A DNA stretch of 64,000 nucleotides from an uncultured Actinomycetota bacterium. GTDB taxonomy: Bacteria; Actinomycetota; Actinomycetes; Propionibacteriales; Nocardioidaceae. Shown here piece after piece: positions 17,237 through 49,361 of this stretch; position 1 is the stretch's first letter, and each line of letters begins with the position of its first letter. The position numbers were made by a program, and so were the translations under genes. The notes below the pieces were generated by a model, which worked only from the letters and a program-made list of their open reading frames with translations, had not been told where the DNA came from and ran no database searches. Location: contig CAWFII010000016.1 in the NCBI GenBank assembly GCA_963815825.1, positions 14,932 to 78,931 on the forward strand. The letters are read 5' to 3'.

Positions 17237-17697
17237 CAGCTCGACCTCGAAGCCAGGATGCGCGCTGCCTTGCGAAGGTCGCCGCGGACGGCGAACACAC
17301 CTGCGCGGGTCGCGGCCCAGCCGACCGGCCGGAGGAGTCCCCGGCCGCGGACACCGAAGGTCACCTCCACGGTGCAGCCACCCGAACGGGGGGAGAAGCC
17401 GAGGGTGAGGTCGGCCTCGATGGCCTTCCAGCGACCTGTCTCGGCCCAGAGCACGTCGGTCTCCATCTCGGTGATCGTCATCTCGGGGTCGATCCCCGCC
17501 GAGGTGAGGTCGCGCCAGCGCATCCCCACGCGTGGCTCGCCGTCGTCGAGCATCTCGACCGCCCGCAGCGACGACTGCCACTCCGGCCGGTTGCGAGGGT
17601 CGGCGAGATAGGCGAAGGCCACGTCCACCGGCACGTCGTACTCCACCGCGGGGCTGCGGGATCCGGTCGGACCCCGACCGGACGTCCCGGGCGTCAT
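17236..17697 (-). CDS. SRPBCC/polyketide cyclase-like protein
   Basis: VPVDVAFAYLADPRNRPEWQSSL motif; coupled to the purC stop. Confidence 0.8.
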   Translation of the reverse strand: MTPGTSGRGPTGSRSPAVEYDVPVDVAFAYLADPRNRPEWQSSLRAVEMLDDGEPRVGMRWRDLTSAGIDPEMTITEMETDVLWAETGRWKAIEADLTLGFSPRSGGCTVEVTFGVRGRGLLRPVGWAATRAGVFAVRGDLRKAARILASRSS

Positions 17698-18602
17698 CAG
17701 AACCGCTCCCCGGTGAGCATCTCGAACGCCTCGACGTAACGCGCCCGAGTGCGGTCGATGATCTCCGTGGGAAGCGCCGGCGGCGCGGCTCCGGACGAGC
17801 GGTCCCACCCGCTCGCCTCGGAGAGCAGCCAGTTGCGCACGATCTGCTTGTCGTAGGAGTCCTGCGCACGACCGGGCTCCCAGTCCGCGGCCGGCCAGAA
17901 GCGGCTGGAGTCAGGGGTGAGCACCTCGTCGGCCAGGACCGTGGTCCCGTTGCCGCCGCTGTCGCCGGCCACCGGCATCAGCCGTGAGCCGAACTCGAGC
18001 TTGCTGTCGGCCAGGATGATGCCGCGCTCGCGGGCCAGAGCCTCGGCGCGCGCGTAGACCGCCAGGGTCAGCTCGCGCAGCTCCGCGGCGGCCGGGGCGC
18101 CCACGTCGGCGACGACGCTCTCGTAGGAGACGTTCTCGTCGTGCTCACCGAGGGCAGCCTTGGTGGCGGGGGTGAAGATCGGCGCAGGCAACCGGCTGCC
18201 GTCCTGCAGCCCCTTCGGGAGCACGATGCCGCAGACCTCACCCCGGGCCTGGTAGTCCGACCAGCCGGACCCGGTGAGGTAGCCCCGTGCCACGCACTCA
18301 ACCGGATACATCGCCAGCTGCTCGCAGACGATGGCCCTCCCCTTGACGGCCTCGGGGACATCGGTCGACCGGACGTGGTTGGGCACGATGTCGGCGAGCT
18401 GGGTGAACCACCACAACGACATGCGGGTGAGGATCTCGCCCTTGTCGGGGATGGTGCTCTCCAGCACGAAGTCGTACGCCGAGATCCGGTCGCTCGCGAC
18501 CATCAGCAGGCTGTCGTCCTCGAGCCGGTAGAGGTCACGGACCTTGCCGGAGTGGATGTGGGTCGCGCCGTCGATGACTGGAGCGTCGGGGATGTTGTGC
18601 AC
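17697..18602 (-). CDS. purC: SAICAR synthetase
   Basis: HSGKVRDLY, SDRISAYD, ECVARGYLTGSG, ILADSKLEFG, DEVLTPDSSRFW, DKQIVR. Confidence 0.98.
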   Translation of the reverse strand: MHNIPDAPVIDGATHIHSGKVRDLYRLEDDSLLMVASDRISAYDFVLESTIPDKGEILTRMSLWWFTQLADIVPNHVRSTDVPEAVKGRAIVCEQLAMYPVECVARGYLTGSGWSDYQARGEVCGIVLPKGLQDGSRLPAPIFTPATKAALGEHDENVSYESVVADVGAPAAAELRELTLAVYARAEALARERGIILADSKLEFGSRLMPVAGDSGGNGTTVLADEVLTPDSSRFWPAADWEPGRAQDSYDKQIVRNWLLSEASGWDRSSGAAPPALPTEIIDRTRARYVEAFEMLTGERF

Positions 18603-18642
18603 GCCGCCACCCTACAAACGCCTCCCGGTTCCCCGGACGTGG

Positions 18643-18680
18643 CTGTGGGGTGTGCCGGCGATCGCCGGCACACCCCACAG
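18643..18680. terminator. Perfect 38-nt palindrome, probable terminator of the KAIL-peptide gene 1
   Basis: ctgtggggtgtgccggc-gatc-gccggcacaccccacag, 13 nt after the stop of 18693-18842. Confidence 0.7.
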
Positions 18681-18692
18681 GTCGAGCAGGAT

Positions 18693-18842
18693 TCAGAGAA
18701 TGGCCTTCAGAATGGCCTTCTGCTCGTGCTTGGTGTCCTGCTTGGCGTCTGCGGCTCCACCGGCAGCACCGATCGAGGAGACGGCGAGGGCAACGGTCGC
18801 CGCGAGGAGTGCGCCGCGGACGGTGCGGGTCTTGATGCTCAT
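18693..18842 (-). CDS. 49-aa secreted peptide precursor (KAIL peptide 1)
   Basis: MSIKTRTVRGALLAATVALAVSSIGAAGGAADAKQDTKHEQKAILKAIL*. RBS GGGAGG, own promoter and terminator, and a paralogue at 46881-47021. Confidence 0.85.
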   Translation of the reverse strand: MSIKTRTVRGALLAATVALAVSSIGAAGGAADAKQDTKHEQKAILKAIL

Positions 18843-18899
18843 GGTGGGGTTCCCTCCCGTAGTTCCGGACCCCCAGGGGTGGGGTCCGGCTGTACATTC

Positions 18900-18929
18900 A
18901 GTCTACGGGCATTTGTCCGTTTTGTCCAA
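18900..18929 (-). promoter_or_regulatory. Sigma70/HrdB-like promoter of KAIL peptide 1
   Basis: Minus strand TTGGAC-N18-TAGACT, overlapped by the direct repeat GGACAAAAC/GGACAAATG. Confidence 0.55.
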
Positions 18930-19165: not shown

Positions 19166-19191
19166 TCTGATTCAGGACAACCTGAATCAGA
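19166..19191. terminator. 11-bp inverted repeat overlapping the purB stop (terminator or operator)
   Basis: tctgattcagg-acaa-cctgaatcaga. Confidence 0.5.
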
Positions 19192-20605
19192 GGATGGCCC
19201 CCGGGGTGTAGCTCGCCGACTCAGGATCGGATGCCAGCGCTGCCTCGACCTGGCGCACCACCGAGGCGACCTGCTCCCGAGCCACTCCGGTGAACTCGAT
19301 CGGCTCCGAGACCAGTGCCTCGATCCGGGCGCGGTCCAGGCCGAGCCGTCCATCCCCCGCGAGCCGCGCGAACAGGTCGTTGTCGGTGCGCCCCTGACGC
19401 ATCTCGAGGGCCACGGCCACGGCGTGCTCCTTGATCGCCTCGTGCGCCTCCTCGCGACCCACGCCGTTGCGCACCGCCGCCATCAGCACCTTGGTCGTGG
19501 TCAGGAACGGGAGGTACCGGTCGAGCTCGCGCTGGACGACCGCAGGAAAGACCCCGAACTCGTCGAGCACCGTCAGGAACGTCTGGAACAGCCCGTCGGC
19601 GGCGAAGAACGCGTCCGGCAGCGCGACGCGGCGTACGACGGAGCAGGAGACGTCGCCCTCGTTCCACTGGTCCCCGGCCAGCTCGCTGACCATCGAGAGG
19701 TGGCCACGGAGGACGACGGCGAGGCCGTTGACCCGTTCGCACGAGCGCGTGTTCATCTTGTGCGGCATCGCGGAGGACCCGACCTGGCCCTCCTTGAAGC
19801 CCTCGGTGACCAGCTCGATCCCGGCCATCAGGCGGATCGTGGTGGCCAGGTTGGACGGACCGGCGACCGTCTGGACCAGGGCCGAGACCACGTCGAAGTC
19901 GAGCGAGCGCGGGTAGACCTGGCCCACGCTCGTGAGCACCTGGTCGAACCCGAGGTGGTGCGCCACCCGCTGCTCGAGCTCGGCGAAACGCGCGGTTGAG
20001 CCGTCCAGGAGGTCGAGCATGTCCTGGCCGGTGCCCATCGGCCCCTTGATCCCCCGCAACGGGTACCGGGCCAGCAGGTCGTCGATCCGGCCCAGCGCGA
20101 GGAGCATCTCGTCGGCCACGGAGGCGAACCGCTTGCCCAGCGTGGTGGCCTGGGCGGCCACGTTGTGCGAGCGACCGGCCATCACCAGGGCCTCGTGCTC
20201 GGTGGCCAGGCGCGCCAGCCGGGCGAGCGCGGCCAGCACCCGCTTGCGGATCAGCCCCAGTGACGCCCTGATCTGGAGCTGCTCGACGTTCTCGGTGAGG
20301 TCGCGCGAGGTCATCCCCTTGTGGATGTGCTCGTGGCCGGCCAGCGCGCAGAACTCCTCGATGCGCGCCTTGACGTCGTGGCGGGTGACCCGCTCGCGCG
20401 CGGCGATGCTGGTGAGGTCCACCTGGTCGACCACGGCCTCGTAGTCGGCGATCACCTCGTCGGGCACGTCGATGCCCAGGCTCTGCTGGGCGGTCAGGAC
20501 CGCGATCCACAGCTGCCGCTCCAGCACGATCTTGTGCTCGGGCGACCAGAGCTCGGCCAGGTCGGCCCCGGCGTACCGGGTGGCCAGCACGTTGGGCACG
20601 GTCAT
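19187..20605 (-). CDS. purB: Adenylosuccinate lyase
   Basis: IHKGMTSRDLTEN, GRSHNVAAQ, fumarate-lyase signature GSSAMPHKMN. Confidence 0.97.
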   Translation of the reverse strand: MTVPNVLATRYAGADLAELWSPEHKIVLERQLWIAVLTAQQSLGIDVPDEVIADYEAVVDQVDLTSIAARERVTRHDVKARIEEFCALAGHEHIHKGMTSRDLTENVEQLQIRASLGLIRKRVLAALARLARLATEHEALVMAGRSHNVAAQATTLGKRFASVADEMLLALGRIDDLLARYPLRGIKGPMGTGQDMLDLLDGSTARFAELEQRVAHHLGFDQVLTSVGQVYPRSLDFDVVSALVQTVAGPSNLATTIRLMAGIELVTEGFKEGQVGSSAMPHKMNTRSCERVNGLAVVLRGHLSMVSELAGDQWNEGDVSCSVVRRVALPDAFFAADGLFQTFLTVLDEFGVFPAVVQRELDRYLPFLTTTKVLMAAVRNGVGREEAHEAIKEHAVAVALEMRQGRTDNDLFARLAGDGRLGLDRARIEALVSEPIEFTGVAREQVASVVRQVEAALASDPESASYTPGAIL

Positions 20606-46617: not shown

Positions 46618-46880
46618 GCAGACCCACCAGCCACACTGCTCGTCTTGCGCCCCTTCCGACTACAGGCGTTACACAAATCGTGCATTCGACGCACTCACGT
46701 CCCGACGCCCAGGTCCACCCCTGATCTCACAAAAATCCAAAAATCTGCCCGTTCGGGCATTTGATTTGTCCGGTTATATCGGACTCGCCCGATAAAGATG
46801 ACCCGAAATGATCATCGCCCAAATGGCGGCTTGACGGATATGAATGGGGACATCCCCTGTTACTACCCTAGGAGTTACAA

Positions 46881-47021
46881 ATGAGCAGGATTCGCGTGCG
46901 CGTCACTACCGTTCTCGCCGCAGCACTGGTGTCCGTCGTCGCCATCGGCGTCGTGGCTCCCGCAGCCACGGCGGCAGCACCGCAGAAGACCCAGAAGGCG
47001 ATCCTGAAGGCGATCCTCTGA
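46881..47021 (+). CDS. 46-aa secreted peptide precursor (KAIL peptide 2)
   Basis: RBS AGGAG; MSRIRVRVTTVLAAALVSVVAIGVVAPAATAAAPQKTQKAILKAIL*; paralogue of 18693-18842. Confidence 0.85.
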   Translation: MSRIRVRVTTVLAAALVSVVAIGVVAPAATAAAPQKTQKAILKAIL

Positions 47022-47046
47022 CCCTCGGGCTCATCGGCGTTCCCGG

Positions 47047-47080
47047 CGCCCACCCGGACCTCTCGAGGTCCCGGTGGGCG
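47047..47080. terminator. 16-bp stem (1 mismatch) between the convergent KAIL peptide 2 and Abi-alpha genes
   Basis: cgcccacccggacctc-tc-gaggtcccggtgggcg. Confidence 0.6.
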
Positions 47081-47142
47081 TCGGTCTTCTCGGGGGCACC
47101 CGGGTCGCTCCTGGGGGTCGCTCCTGCGGGTCACTCCTCGGG

Positions 47143-48045
47143 TCACTCCTCGGGGATCTCGTGGAGCGGCAGCGTCGGTCCCTCGTCCGGATCCACCAGG
47201 GAGGCCCGGCAGAAACCGGCGCCGAACGGTGTCAGGTGGATGCTGCGGCGCACCACCTTGGGGAACCGCACCGAGTGCATCGCCTCGAGGACGTCGGGCT
47301 GGGCCTCGACCACCTGGTACTCCATCGGGTCCTCGAGCTGCTCGCGGGAGAACCAGATCAGACCCAGCCGGAACAGGTTGTTGAGGTAGGCCGGCACCTC
47401 GTCGAGATAGCGGCACCCCGCTCTCGCGCCGATCATCGACATGCCCGGCGCCACCAGCGCCGAGCTGACCAGCCCCACCGGCCCACCGGTGCGCACGTCG
47501 ACCGAGGGCTGGGGCCCACCGCGCAGGAGCAGCAGGAGGATGCGCGCCTCGTCCGGTGCCAGGTCGTCGAGGATCCGGGCGTACGCCGGGTGCGTCCGCT
47601 CGTCGCTCCAGACATCCCGGGAGCGCTGCAACAGGCTCTCGCCCCGCTCGCGCAACGTCGGCTCCGGCTCCTCGTGCTGCTGCGGGGTGGTGTCGGCGAG
47701 CACGACCGAGGACAGCGAGACGCTGGCATCCAGGAGCGCCTTCGGGATCGGGACCCCCGCCGAGACGGCGCGCGCCACGTCGCTGACCGTCCTGCTGGCC
47801 TCGGCGACGTCACGTGCCACTTCCTGGACCAGCTCCCCCGCGGTCTGAGGATCGGTCAGGGCGCGCACGACGAGCCTGCTCGAGCGGACGCCGGAGCCCA
47901 AGCCCCAGGCGGCCGAGCGCAGCGCCGCCGTGGCGGCGATCCGTGCCATGCCCGGCAGGGCCTCCGCCGCCTCGTCCCACAGGGCGGGGGGCGTACGGCG
48001 CGGACCTCGCCCGTTGCCTGCGTCGTCGGACCCGTCCACGTTCAT
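47143..48045 (-). CDS. Abi-alpha/DUF4393 family protein
   Basis: HPAYARILDDLAPDEARIL...YLNNLFRLGL...LTPFGAGF pattern; RBS GGAGG; overlaps the DUF445 stop. Confidence 0.75.
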   Translation of the reverse strand: MNVDGSDDAGNGRGPRRTPPALWDEAAEALPGMARIAATAALRSAAWGLGSGVRSSRLVVRALTDPQTAGELVQEVARDVAEASRTVSDVARAVSAGVPIPKALLDASVSLSSVVLADTTPQQHEEPEPTLRERGESLLQRSRDVWSDERTHPAYARILDDLAPDEARILLLLLRGGPQPSVDVRTGGPVGLVSSALVAPGMSMIGARAGCRYLDEVPAYLNNLFRLGLIWFSREQLEDPMEYQVVEAQPDVLEAMHSVRFPKVVRRSIHLTPFGAGFCRASLVDPDEGPTLPLHEIPEE

Positions 48046-49361
48046 GTCGCTCCTCCCACCCCGAAGATCGCCAGGTGCAGCATGCCACCGCCGAAGCCCA
48101 TGATCGCCCCGTGCGCGTACAGCATCCACTCATCCTCCTTGATCGCGGAGCGCATCATCTCCACGAAGTCACGGGGTGGGAGCTCCTTGGTCCGATTGGC
48201 GATCAGGGAGTAGATCTTCTCCGACTGGCGCCGGCTGAACTCGGGGTCCCGGAAGGGCGCGATGGTGCGGTCGACTGCCTCGAGGGCGACCGCCTCCCGG
48301 ATGCTGTCGAAGCGTCGGCTGCCGACCGCGATCCGCACCGCACCGCGCAGCGGACCGGCGGCGTTGTCGATCGCGGGTCGCATCGCCTCGGCCAGCATCT
48401 GCTGGGTGCGGTCGCCACGTGGCCCCTCGAGGAGGAAGTCACCGATGTTCTCGAGGGTGATGACGTCCTCGGCGATGATCTGGGCGTACACCTCGGCGGC
48501 CTCGTCCTGACGGCGCAGGAAGAGACCGTGCACCCAGATGCCGAGGATGCGCCGCGGCTCCGGCGGCTCGAAGATCAGCCACATGCCCAGCGCATTGGTC
48601 ACCCATCCCACGACCACACCGAGGACCGGCAGCAGCCACCACTGCGCGAACCAGTGGTCCACGACCGCAACGGGGACGCCGAGCGCGAACCCGAAGACGA
48701 ACCCGAACGCCACCATCAGGTTCAGCTCGCGCTGGCCGAAGTCGCGGAAGATCCGCACCACCAGGGCGGGGTTCTTCTGGAAGTGGTTGATCACCATGAT
48801 CTTCGGGTCCAGCAGCTGGTCGATGTGCTCACCGATCTCGTCCGTCACGGTGCGGACGACCCCCGGCAGCTGCGACTGGACCCTGGCGATGACCGTTGCA
48901 CGACCCCGCGCGGGAAGATCCCGCCACAGGTCCGGGGACTCGCGCCGCATGATCTTCTCGATCATCGCCGGCATCTCCGGCTCGAAGACCTGGACGATGT
49001 GCTCGGCGATCTGGTCGGGTTCGAGCTGCTGGTAGAACTCTTTCGGCGTTCCCAGCTTGGCGATCGCCTTGTCCACGGCGATGCTGCCCATCTTCGCGGC
49101 CCGGGCGGGGACGATGCCCTGCCATCCGAGGCCGCCCTGCAGGATCCCCGGCACCTCCTGGAGCTTGCGGGGCAGCACGCGGGAGAGCTGTCGCATGCCG
49201 GGGACACGGACACCACGGAAGCGCACCGGCGAGAACAGCATGACCAGTCCGGTCCAGTTGATCAGCCACCCCACGATGCCGGTGAAGACCGGCACGGAGA
49301 GCAGGTGCAGCCAGTCGACACGCTGGAAGAGCCAGTCGATCTCCAGCGGCCAGGCAGGCAT
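48042..49361 (-). CDS. DUF445 family membrane protein
   Basis: IVGWLINWTGLVMLF, WQGIVPARAAKMG, internal repeat VGWVTNALGMWLIF, EDEWMLYAHGAIMG. Confidence 0.85.
   Translation of the reverse strand: MPAWPLEIDWLFQRVDWLHLLSVPVFTGIVGWLINWTGLVMLFSPVRFRGVRVPGMRQLSRVLPRKLQEVPGILQGGLGWQGIVPARAAKMGSIAVDKAIAKLGTPKEFYQQLEPDQIAEHIVQVFEPEMPAMIEKIMRRESPDLWRDLPARGRATVIARVQSQLPGVVRTVTDEIGEHIDQLLDPKIMVINHFQKNPALVVRIFRDFGQRELNLMVAFGFVFGFALGVPVAVVDHWFAQWWLLPVLGVVVGWVTNALGMWLIFEPPEPRRILGIWVHGLFLRRQDEAAEVYAQIIAEDVITLENIGDFLLEGPRGDRTQQMLAEAMRPAIDNAAGPLRGAVRIAVGSRRFDSIREAVALEAVDRTIAPFRDPEFSRRQSEKIYSLIANRTKELPPRDFVEMMRSAIKEDEWMLYAHGAIMGFGGGMLHLAIFGVGGAT

What the first reader, a model, noticed from the sequence alone, without database searches (positions are those of the whole stretch)
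18693..18842. Unannotated secreted micro-peptide family: two paralogues ending in QKAILKAIL-stop (copy 1)
Seen: this 49-codon ORF (MSIKTRTVRGALLAATVALAVSSIGAAGGAADA|KQDTKHEQKAILKAIL) and a 46-codon ORF 28 kb away (46881-47021, MSRIRVRVTTVLAAALVSVVAIGVVAPAATA|AAPQKTQKAILKAIL) are both missing from the ORF track. Each has an RBS, a basic N-region, a hydrophobic core, an A-x-A site and a downstream hairpin. The only strongly conserved part is the terminal nonapeptide, and it is written with different synonymous codons (CAG AAG GCC ATT CTG AAG GCC ATT CTC TGA versus CAG AAG GCG ATC CTG AAG GCG ATC CTC TGA), which indicates selection on the protein. Established: a signal peptide plus a short conserved C-terminal mature peptide is the layout of Phr/PapR/AimP-type peptide signals in Firmicutes. 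Inference: this is an actinobacterial secreted peptide signal, or a cationic amphipathic (KAIL)2 surfactant/antimicrobial. I do not recognise it as a described family.
Basis: partly seen in the sequence, partly recalled or inferred. Interest (0 to 1): 0.9.

Follow-up and report, generated by a model that had tools for sequence, protein, structure and literature searches.

The report
Secreted AIL-repeat mini-peptides of Marmoricola
Two tiny genes in this soil actinobacterium (Marmoricola) belong to an undescribed, clade-wide family of exported mini-peptides that carry 1-12 copies of the tripeptide Ala-Ile-Leu, which looks like a multi-copy precursor of a short extracellular peptide, possibly a signal, though nothing shows yet what it does.

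Summary
Both ORFs exist exactly as described: 18842..18693 on the minus strand and 46881..47021 on the plus strand. They are real genes. Each has its own promoter region, RBS, Sec-type signal peptide with an AxA site, and a strong terminator hairpin.

Relatives occur in 47 of 103 genomes of one GTDB genus (Marmoricola). They occur in 0 of 343 genomes from 59 other genera of the family. Within the genus they fill almost one whole subclade.

There are two syntenic paralogues, 19-44 kb apart. T1 lies directly upstream of purC. T2 lies between clpB and an Abi_alpha gene.

The conserved module is the tripeptide AIL, not (KAIL)2. Copy number runs from 1 to 12. Spacers run from 0 to 5 variable residues. 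AIL nearly always ends the protein. Units inside one gene differ only by synonymous codons.

The multi-unit arrays are neither cationic nor amphipathic, which weakens the antimicrobial/surfactant reading. A multi-copy exported propeptide that yields short peptides ending in AIL fits best, by analogy with tandemly duplicated Phr propeptides.

No receptor is linked. The REC-kinase, Abi_alpha and flagellar links all failed the tests. Expression data could not be obtained. The function is unproven.

The parts
18693..18842 (-). T1 paralogue (copy 1), 49-aa AIL pro-peptide gene. Signal peptide = codons 1-33 (18744-18842, ending AADA|K). Variable linker = KQDTKHEQK. Two AIL units and the stop lie at 18693-18719.
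   Evidence: Orthologues lie at the same purB-(M28)-T1-purC position in more than 30 genomes.
18900..18928 (-). Sigma-70-type promoter of T1: TGGACA-17 nt-TAGACT. It overlaps the family's conserved upstream word GGACAAAACGGACAAATG (18910-18927).
   Evidence: One search found 1 promoter-like site against 0.1 expected. The word TGTCCG/CGGACA occurs in 23 of 35 family upstreams against 2.6 expected.
18865..18889 (-). 5'-UTR stem-loop (CCGGACCCC...GGGGGTCCGG) just upstream of the RBS. It is probably an mRNA-stabilising 5' hairpin (inferred).
   Evidence: fold. A hairpin of the type GGACC-GNCG-GGGTCC recurs at this position in most T1 orthologues.
18850..18858 (-). Ribosome-binding site GGGAGGGAA, ending 7 nt before the ATG.
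   Evidence: GGAGGGAA is conserved in T1 orthologues.
18643..18680 (-). T1 terminator hairpin: a 17-bp GC-rich stem with no U-tract.
   Evidence: -46.6 kcal/mol, z = -6.2. An equivalent hairpin follows every T1 orthologue.
18609..18614 (-). TAGGGT -10 box, with 6 nt between it and the purC GTG (18600-18602). purC appears to be leaderless with its own promoter, so T1 is a separate transcription unit (inferred).
   Evidence: The string gtttgTAGGGTg(N5-6)GTGCACAAC is conserved in relatives.
46881..47021 (+). T2 paralogue (copy 2), 46-aa AIL pro-peptide gene. Signal peptide = codons 1-31 (46881-46973, ending ATA|A). Linker = AAPQKTQK. Two AIL units and the stop lie at 46995-47021.
   Evidence: MSRIR(I/V)R-type orthologues lie at the clpB / Abi_alpha-DUF445 locus in about 20 genomes.
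46768..46817 (+). Conserved T2 upstream elements: the palindrome GTCCG-N7-CGGAC (46768-46784) and GATGACCCGAAATGATCATCG (46797-46817). These are a candidate operator and promoter; the factor that binds them is unknown.
   Evidence: the same elements are seen in T2 and third-locus orthologues. The sigma-70 consensus scan found no promoter here.
46870..46874 (+). RBS AGGAG, ending 6 nt before the ATG.
   Evidence: AAGGAG is conserved in T2 orthologues.
47045..47082 (+). T2 terminator hairpin. The next gene (Abi_alpha, 47143-48129) is convergent.
   Evidence: -43.6 kcal/mol, z = -4.5. for the neighbouring gene.

Best explanation
The two ORFs belong to a vertically inherited, clade-specific family of Sec-exported mini-propeptides.

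Shown:
- Each gene is a self-contained unit: promoter region, strong RBS, ORF and strong terminator, plus a 5' hairpin in T1.
- The ORF encodes a classical signal peptide with a conserved AxA site.
- A short, poorly conserved, Pro/Lys/Gly-rich linker follows.
- After that come 1-12 tandem Ala-Ile-Leu units separated by 0-5 variable residues.
- The last unit almost always ends the protein.

Inferred:
- After signal-peptidase cleavage, the pro-region is released outside the cell.
- Extracellular proteases cut it, most simply after each Leu.
- This gives 3-6-residue peptides that all end in AIL-COOH (KAIL, NKAIL, DKAIL, QDAIL and so on).
- Copy number then sets the dose.
- These peptides act as a diffusible ligand for a conserved, unlinked target. 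The most likely reading is an autoinducer-like extracellular cue, either re-imported or sensed at the envelope.

My confidence that this is a real, exported, AIL-unit-based peptide family is about 0.8. My confidence in the full chain, including a signalling role, is about 0.35-0.4.
For: Reality and selection:
- The AIL-x-AIL-stop pattern occurs in 42 of 103 genus genomes, with 0 hits to the reversed control.
- With free spacers and counting only hits that end in a true stop codon, it occurs in 47 of 103 genomes (27 of 53 high-quality).
- It occurs in 0 of 343 genomes from 59 other genera.
- Only 16 cluster representatives were found among 1.8 billion proteins.
- dN/dS is 0.30 for T1 and 0.34 for T2, at dS 0.8-1.06.
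- Units inside one gene differ by synonymous codons while AIL stays invariant.

Clade-wide retention:
- Using identity of the neighbouring core gene as a proxy for phylogeny, nearly all genomes at 73% identity or more carry the peptide. The exceptions are two incomplete MAGs and a few genomes with only partial-length matches.
- 32 genomes have two or more copies. Where both lie on one contig they are 19-44 kb apart, on opposite strands in all but one genome (G369).

Unit modularity:
- G352 T1 has 12 units (period 6). G181 has 5, 6 and 7 units at three loci (period 5). G355 T1 ends AILAILAIL. G175 T2 has 3 units. Spacers seen include K, R, H, KK, KR, NK, DK, NH, KVS and TIS.

Export layout:
- The n-region, h-region, helix breaker and A-x-A are conserved in both paralogues, although their signal peptides otherwise differ.

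Precedent:
- Exported pheromone propeptides with tandemly duplicated active units are known (PMC11343458, PMC5199041; PMC5850478 for eukaryotic polyprotein signals).

Possible maturation enzyme:
- A secreted PA+M28 aminopeptidase gene sits directly upstream of T1 in 12 genomes.
Against: - There is no evidence of transcription, translation or a secreted peptide.
- No dedicated signal-peptide predictor was available.
- No receptor or transporter is linked to either locus. The neighbours are housekeeping or core genes: purB/purC, clpB, and Abi_alpha in 90 of 103 genomes regardless of the peptide.
- The REC-kinase next to copy 2 is missing from that locus in several genomes.
- No RNPP_C-type receptor was detected in the genome. 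That test's controls were weak.
- Known peptide pheromones usually diversify between strains. Here the unit is invariant across species and paralogues, which points instead to a conserved structural or enzymatic target.
- The cleavage-after-Leu rule is inference only.
- The M28 gene is absent from this genome altogether.
Confidence: 0.4

Rival explanations
1. Ligand of an envelope protein that reads hydrophobic C-termini, not cell-to-cell signalling. The exported peptides would present a free AIL-COOH end to, for example, a PDZ-domain protease (HtrA, Ctp or site-2-protease type) or another conserved envelope enzyme. They would then act as activator, inhibitor or decoy.
For: AIL sits at the extreme C-terminus in nearly all members. 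The unit is invariant across species and paralogues, as expected for a conserved housekeeping target. No linked receptor was found. That PDZ domains recognise hydrophobic C-termini is established knowledge, for example DegS with YxF; this is cited from memory.
Against: No PDZ-protease gene is linked. Internal units would still need cleavage to expose a C-terminus. Nothing was tested directly.
Confidence: 0.15
2. Cationic amphipathic membrane-active peptide (surfactant, wetting agent or antimicrobial), as the first reader proposed for (KAIL)2.
For: The canonical octamer KAILKAIL has a helical hydrophobic moment of 0.59. The 14-16-residue mature peptides carry a net charge of +2 to +3, similar to mastoparan. 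The gene architecture suggests high expression.
Against: The lysine is not conserved: R, H, G, NH, DK, KQD and no spacer all occur. Arrays with period 5 or 6 have a moment of 0.03-0.07 at 100 degrees and are nearly neutral. Only about 8 residues could form a helix, and prolines lie upstream. No immunity or ABC-transporter genes are adjacent.
Confidence: 0.1
3. Small bitopic membrane protein. The N-terminal hydrophobic segment is an uncleaved anchor. The short AIL tail lies on the outer face of the membrane and modulates a membrane protein, in the manner of MgrB or AcrZ.
For: Size (44-62 aa) and N-terminal hydrophobic helix. Many bacterial small proteins work this way (general knowledge).
Against: The A-x-A motif with a Pro/Gly helix breaker at -4 to -6 is conserved in both paralogues, although the h-regions differ. 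Nothing in an anchor role would select for this. Expansion to 12 external units is hard to fit with a fixed partner interface.
Confidence: 0.1
4. Leader peptide of a transcription attenuator. Ile/Leu codons at the end of a short ORF, followed by a terminator, would control read-through into purC.
For: T1 is always directly upstream of purC on the same strand. A strong hairpin starts about 13-60 nt after the stop.
Against: T2 and the third-locus copies have no co-directional downstream gene. purC has its own conserved -10 box next to its GTG start. The fold shows no alternative anti-terminator pairing. purC is not an Ile/Leu pathway gene. A conserved signal peptide is unexplained. There is no Rfam match.
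Confidence: 0.03
5. Not functional genes: chance ORFs or non-coding RNA elements.
For: They are very short. Copy 1 is not called in the protein collection. There are no expression data.
Against: The reversed-pattern control gave 0 hits in more than 500 genomes. Start, RBS, frame and stop are conserved, with in-frame indels and synonymous substitutions. The family is retained almost everywhere in one clade, at two syntenic loci.
Confidence: 0.02

Closest known systems
Phr / PapR / NprX / AimP propeptides of RRNPP(A) quorum sensing in Bacillota, including Phr propeptides with tandemly duplicated pheromone units (PMC11343458, PMC5199041)
   Same: A 40-60-aa precursor. A Sec-type signal peptide with an AxA site. 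A short pro-region. The conserved part lies at the C-terminus. The copy number of the short unit varies within the precursor. A basic residue often precedes the unit (that Phr peptides share this feature is recalled from memory).
   Different: There is no sequence homology and the phylum is different (Actinomycetota). No adjacent TPR receptor gene exists, and no RNPP_C hit was found in the genome. The unit is invariant across species rather than diversified into pherotypes. The genes sit among housekeeping genes, not on mobile elements or next to regulators.
Eukaryotic polyprotein precursors of signalling peptides, such as yeast alpha-factor and neuropeptide precursors (PMC5850478)
   Same: A signal peptide is followed by tandem copies of one short peptide separated by short spacers rich in basic or acidic residues. 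Repeat number varies between lineages.
   Different: Here the organism is bacterial and export is by Sec. The units are far shorter (3 conserved residues). No Kex2-type dibasic sites are consistently present. This is an analogy only.
Short cationic amphipathic helical peptides, such as mastoparan-like or designed KLAK/KIAGKIA-type antimicrobial peptides
   Same: The canonical KAILKAIL tail has a comparable hydrophobic moment and charge.
   Different: Charge and amphipathic periodicity are not conserved across the family. The helical part is too short. No immunity genes are present.
Amino-acid attenuation leader peptides (ilv/leu leaders)
   Same: A short ORF ends in Ile/Leu codons, is followed by a strong hairpin, and lies upstream of a biosynthetic gene (T1-purC).
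   Different: The peptide has a signal peptide. The downstream gene is unrelated to Ile/Leu and has its own promoter. T2 has nothing downstream. No anti-terminator structure was found.

Membership tests
Sec/SPase-I exported pre-peptide | A basic n-region, a hydrophobic h-region of 10-15 residues, and a polar c-region with small residues at -3 and -1 (AxA) | tested here: met
   Read directly in 35 or more family members. T1 has M-x-x-K-x-R...ALLAVTVALAV...PAAGGAADA|. T2 has MSRIRIRV...APAATA|. No SignalP-type predictor was available, so the cleavage itself is inferred.
RRNPP(A) pheromone propeptide (Phr/PapR/NprX/AimP/SHP) | The gene is adjacent to, or in an operon with, its cognate cytoplasmic TPR receptor | tested here: not met
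   T1 is flanked by purB (or M28/acylphosphatase) and purC. T2 is flanked by clpB (sometimes a REC-HisKA-HATPase hybrid) and Abi_alpha/DUF445. No TPR or HTH gene lies within about 1.5-6 kb in any locus examined.
RRNPP(A) pheromone propeptide (Phr/PapR/NprX/AimP/SHP) | The genome encodes an RNPP-type receptor | tested here: inconclusive
   PF18768 (RNPP_C) gave no match in the window's own genome. The tool's control genomes did not behave as a clean positive control, and the genome is 92% complete.
RRNPP(A) pheromone propeptide (Phr/PapR/NprX/AimP/SHP) | The mature active peptide derives from the C-terminal part of an exported precursor, with tandem duplication of the unit possible | tested here: met
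   The architecture matches: conserved C-terminal AIL units in 1-12 copies. Actual maturation was not tested.
RRNPP(A) pheromone propeptide (Phr/PapR/NprX/AimP/SHP) | Import by an Opp permease and binding to the receptor | not testable with these tools
   This requires genetics and biochemistry.
Cationic amphipathic antimicrobial/surfactant peptide | Net positive charge and amphipathic periodicity conserved across the family | tested here: not met
   The hydrophobic moment at 100 degrees is 0.59 for KAILKAIL but 0.03 (G352 array) and 0.07 (G181 array). Side-chain net charge is +2 over 68 residues and +1 over 24 residues. The K position is replaceable by R, H, G, NH, DK or nothing.
Cationic amphipathic antimicrobial/surfactant peptide | Linked immunity, export or modification genes | tested here: not met
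   None were found in any locus.
Attenuation leader peptide | The terminator can alternate with an anti-terminator that overlaps the ORF end, and a co-directional regulated gene lies downstream | tested here: not met
   The fold shows only the terminator hairpin. T2 and third-locus copies face a convergent gene or unrelated genes. purC keeps its own -10 box.
Any curated protein or RNA family (Pfam, NCBIfam, Rfam) | A significant profile match | tested here: not met
   Pfam gave no hits. The best NCBIfam hit had E = 0.12 and scored below its cut-off. Rfam gave only sub-threshold noise.

The most novel reading that the evidence does not exclude
The AIL peptides are the first Sec-exported, multi-copy linear oligopeptide pheromone of an actinobacterium. 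Precursors with 1-12 units would be cut into 3-6-residue peptides ending in AIL. These would be sensed by a conserved, unlinked receptor and coordinate population behaviour across a whole Marmoricola subclade. Unit number would serve as an evolvable dose control.
Probability: 0.25. Interest if true: 0.8.

Novelty: new variant of a known kind. Interest (0 to 1): 0.55.

Why it matters
Cell-to-cell signalling in Actinomycetota is known mainly from gamma-butyrolactones and other small molecules. As far as I know and could find, ribosomal, Sec-exported linear peptide signals of the Firmicute type have not been described there.

This family is tiny, easy to synthesise, and strongly conserved within a clade. 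It is present in cultured strains: an Arabidopsis leaf isolate, Marmoricola sp. Leaf446, and Nocardioides aurantiacus. It also comes with a natural series of unit numbers (1, 2, 3, 5, 6, 7, 12). The question 'what does a secreted peptide ending in AIL do?' can therefore be tested directly.

Even if the peptides turn out to be envelope ligands rather than signals, they are a clear case of a lineage-specific small protein that gene callers and family databases miss. They also show that the true functional unit of such a protein only becomes visible through comparative data.

Tried and rejected
1. Flagellar late-regulon membership. The words TGTCCGATTT and GTCCGAA upstream of the peptide genes also occur upstream of fliC and the flgN-flgK operon in this genome. 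However, the genus-wide fliC promoter is CTCA-N15-GCCGATGA, and the peptide genes lack it. The shared word is upstream of fliC in only the three of 30 fliC loci examined (G000, G364, G157). Flagellin and peptide presence are not associated: 15 genomes have both, 32 peptide only, 24 flagellin only, 32 neither, against 17.8 expected to have both.

2. REC-histidine-kinase hybrid as partner of copy 2. It is absent from the T2 locus in several genomes (L020, L028, L110, L113-L115).

3. Abi_alpha/DUF445 as partner. It is present in 90 of 103 genomes regardless of the peptide.

4. RNPP-type receptor in the genome. No hit was found.

5. Known families. Pfam, NCBIfam and Rfam gave nothing. The only literature hit for 'KAILKAIL' was irrelevant.

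7. Word search for the shared upstream words in the own genome. It gave a handful of sites: fliC, a membrane histidine kinase at C22:270264, a PBP-like gene and an alcohol-dehydrogenase-like gene. No coherent picture emerged.

8. Context of divergent metagenomic members (P0016, P0010). The contigs were too short. P0016 still shows the purB-peptide-purC arrangement.

9. Earlier scan notes gave no independent evidence on this family.

Full report
**1. Observation**

- Copy 1 lies on the minus strand (18842..18693, 49 codons).
- Copy 2 lies on the plus strand (46881..47021, 46 codons).
- The two end in the same QKAILKAIL-stop, written with four synonymous differences.
- A back-translated (KAIL)2 pattern finds only these two sites in the window, with 0 hits in 100 shuffles.
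- It finds only these two sites in the whole 3.77-Mb assembly.
- Neither peptide matches any Pfam or NCBIfam model.
- The T1 region has no Rfam match.
- The string KAILKAIL appears in no relevant paper.

**2. The genes are real and form a family**

*Distribution*
- A search of 301 genomes of the family found exact KAILKAIL-stop only in the window's own genus. Record titles name that genus as Marmoricola.
- Relaxing the pattern to AIL-x-AIL-stop gave 42 of 103 genomes of the genus, with no hit to the reversed control.
- The same pattern gave 0 of 343 genomes from 59 other genera.
- Allowing 1-3 spacer codons and counting only true stop codons gives 47 of 103 genomes (27 of 53 high-quality).
- An exhaustive profile search of 1.8 billion representative proteins returned only 16 clusters.

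*Clade and copy number*
- I used identity of the neighbouring core gene (Abi_alpha, present in 90 of 103 genomes) as a rough phylogenetic ruler.
- The carriers are essentially all genomes at 73% identity or more.
- The exceptions are two incomplete MAGs and a few genomes with only partial-length matches. More distant genus members lack the peptide.
- The family therefore looks like a single gain, retained almost universally in one subclade.
- 32 genomes have at least two copies. When both are on one contig, they lie 19-44 kb apart, on opposite strands in all but one genome (G369), as in the window.

*Loci*
- T1 (copy-1 type, MN(F/I)K(S/T)R...) always sits directly upstream of purC on the same strand.
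- Upstream of T1 is either purB or a secreted PA+M28 aminopeptidase.
- T2 (copy-2 type, MSRIR(I/V)R...) sits between clpB and a convergent Abi_alpha-DUF445 pair.
- A few genomes have a third copy elsewhere.

*Annotation*
- Some members are annotated 'hypothetical protein' in RefSeq: WP_156384262.1 in Marmoricola sp. Leaf446 and WP_170169870.1 in Nocardioides aurantiacus.
- Cultured carriers therefore exist.

**3. Gene anatomy**

*T1 in the window*
- A sigma-70-type promoter, TGGACA-17-TAGACT (18928..18900).
- A 9-bp 5'-UTR hairpin (18865-18889).
- A strong RBS.
- The ORF.
- A 17-bp GC-rich terminator hairpin (18643-18680; -46.6 kcal/mol, z = -6.2).

All of these recur in the orthologues.

*purC*
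- purC keeps a conserved TAGGGT box, with 6 nt between it and its GTG start.
- It therefore appears to be a separate, leaderless unit.

*T2*
- An AAGGAG RBS.
- A -43.6 kcal/mol terminator.
- Conserved upstream elements: a GTCCG-N7-CGGAC palindrome, then GATGACCCGAAATGATCATCG.

*The peptides*
- Both paralogues encode a basic n-region, a hydrophobic core, a Pro/Gly break and an A-x-A site.
- Their signal peptides otherwise share little sequence.
- This is the pattern expected for cleaved Sec signal peptides. Cleavage is inferred, because no predictor was available.

**4. The functional unit is AIL, not (KAIL)2**

This is the main revision. Across the family the residue between the last two units is K, R, H or G. 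The spacer can also be KK, KR, NK, DK, NH, KVS, TIS, or nothing.

Unit number varies:

| Units | Example |
|---|---|
| 1 | P0016 (NAILRR) |
| 2 | most members |
| 3 | P0005; G175 T2 (SAILKRAILKRAIL) |
| 5 | G181 and G361 T1 (KAIL-NHAIL-NHAIL-DKAIL-DKAIL) |
| 6 | G181 T2; G355 T1 (ending ...SAILAILAIL) |
| 7 | third-locus copies |
| 12 | G352 T1 (NAILKQ-DAILKA-... -DAILKAIL) |

- In G181 all three loci are expanded.
- Within one array, the units differ by synonymous codons (GCC/GCG, ATC/ATT, CTG/CTC/TTG) while Ala-Ile-Leu stays invariant.
- Whole-gene dN/dS is 0.30 (T1) and 0.34 (T2), at dS 0.8-1.06.
- AIL almost always ends the protein.

**5. Consequences for the interpretations**

*Amphipathic antimicrobial or surfactant reading*
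- The canonical octamer is amphipathic, with a moment of 0.59 at 100 degrees.
- Arrays with period 5 or 6 have moments of 0.03-0.07 and are nearly uncharged.
- Family-wide selection therefore cannot be acting on a cationic amphipathic helix.

*Multi-copy propeptide reading*
- Variable copy number, with variable spacers around an invariant short unit and a free C-terminal unit, is what a multi-copy propeptide looks like.
- The simplest rule that gives every unit the same product is cleavage after Leu. This yields peptides of type x(0-3)-AIL-COOH.
- Tandem duplication of the active unit is documented for Phr propeptides (PMC11343458, PMC5199041) and for eukaryotic polyprotein signals (PMC5850478).

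*Against strict RRNPP membership*
- No receptor gene is adjacent in any locus.
- PF18768 finds nothing in the genome (weak control).
- The unit does not diversify between species.

**6. Partner and regulon tests that failed**
- The REC-HisKA-HATPase hybrid upstream of copy 2 (Pfam) is missing from the T2 locus in several genomes.
- Abi_alpha is a core gene of the genus, independent of the peptide.
- Upstream words shared with fliC and flgN in this genome suggested a flagellar link. The genus-wide fliC promoter (CTCA-N15-GCCGATGA) is absent from the peptide genes.
- Flagellin and peptide are not co-distributed: 15 genomes have both, against 17.8 expected.
- The attenuator idea fails. T2 has no downstream gene, purC has its own promoter, and no anti-terminator fold exists.
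- The PA+M28 aminopeptidase next to T1 in 12 genomes is a candidate trimming enzyme. It is absent from this genome.

**7. Verdict**

*Shown:* a real, selected, clade-wide family of small genes with a Sec-type leader and tandem AIL units, at two conserved loci.

*Inferred:*
- export and proteolytic release of short peptides ending in AIL;
- action as an extracellular ligand, most likely a signal (about 0.35-0.4).

*Rivals:*

| Rival | Confidence |
|---|---|
| Envelope ligand for a C-terminus-reading protein | 0.15 |
| Amphipathic membrane-active peptide | 0.10 |
| Uncleaved small membrane protein | 0.10 |
| Attenuator | 0.03 |
| Artefact | 0.02 |

*Limits:*
- No signal-peptide predictor was available.
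- No phyletic profiling for receptors was possible.

The family has no curated or published description that I could find. It resembles a known kind of system, exported multi-copy propeptides, in a phylum where that kind is not established.

Noticed in passing
window 18600-18614 (- strand): purC (17697-18602) seems to be leaderless. A conserved TAGGGT -10 box lies 6 nt upstream of its GTG start, here and in most relatives (gtttgTAGGGTg...GTGCACAAC).
   Followed up: partly
window 19187-19201 (- strand), 3' end of purB: PurB itself ends ...YTPGAIL-stop (GGG GCC ATC CTC TGA), the same AIL-stop as the peptide gene 345 nt downstream. Relatives have PGAIL, PGSIL, PGDIL or PGDII. This could be coincidence, or a hint that T1 arose from a duplicated purB 3' end.
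   Followed up: partly
L007:3716-5473 and the T1 loci of 11 other genomes (e.g. L003, L004, L008, L009, L012, L016, L029, L031, L038, L040, L043): A secreted PA-domain + peptidase M28 aminopeptidase gene lies directly upstream of the T1 peptide gene in many relatives. In L007 an acylphosphatase gene lies between them. No homologue exists anywhere in the window's own genome. It is a candidate pro-peptide trimming enzyme.
   Followed up: partly
window 18910-18927 and 46768-46817; own genome C28:45508 and C28:46456: A shared cis-element built on GTCCGA/TCGGAC (TTGTCCGATTTAT..., (T)AGTCCGAAAT) occurs upstream of both peptide paralogues in many species. It also occurs upstream of fliC and the flgN-flgK operon in this genome. 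In one T2 orthologue (L020) both arms of the palindrome change together (GTCCC...GGGAC). The binding factor is unknown.
   Followed up: partly
own genome C28:25500-49800; loci L060-L089: A complete flagellar gene cluster with a FliA/WhiG-type sigma factor lies next to fliC. The genus-wide fliC promoter consensus is CTCA-N15-GCCGATGA. Flagellin is patchy in the genus (39 of 103 genomes).
   Followed up: partly
window 46746-46759: A small hairpin, TGCCCG-TT-CGGGCA, flanked by T-runs on both strands, lies between the REC-kinase gene and copy 2. It could be a bidirectional terminator-like element for the kinase gene.
   Followed up: no
L111 (G361:C28) versus L103 (G181:C1): The third-locus 7-unit copy in G361 has lost its signal-peptide frame, compared with the intact G181 copy. 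This is either a frameshift pseudogene or a MAG assembly error.
   Followed up: no
L042 (G357): A divergent T2-like copy (…APQAILHAIL) lies beside a stand-alone receiver-domain protein, next to the principal sigma factor gene. This is a different context from the usual clpB/Abi_alpha locus.
   Followed up: partly
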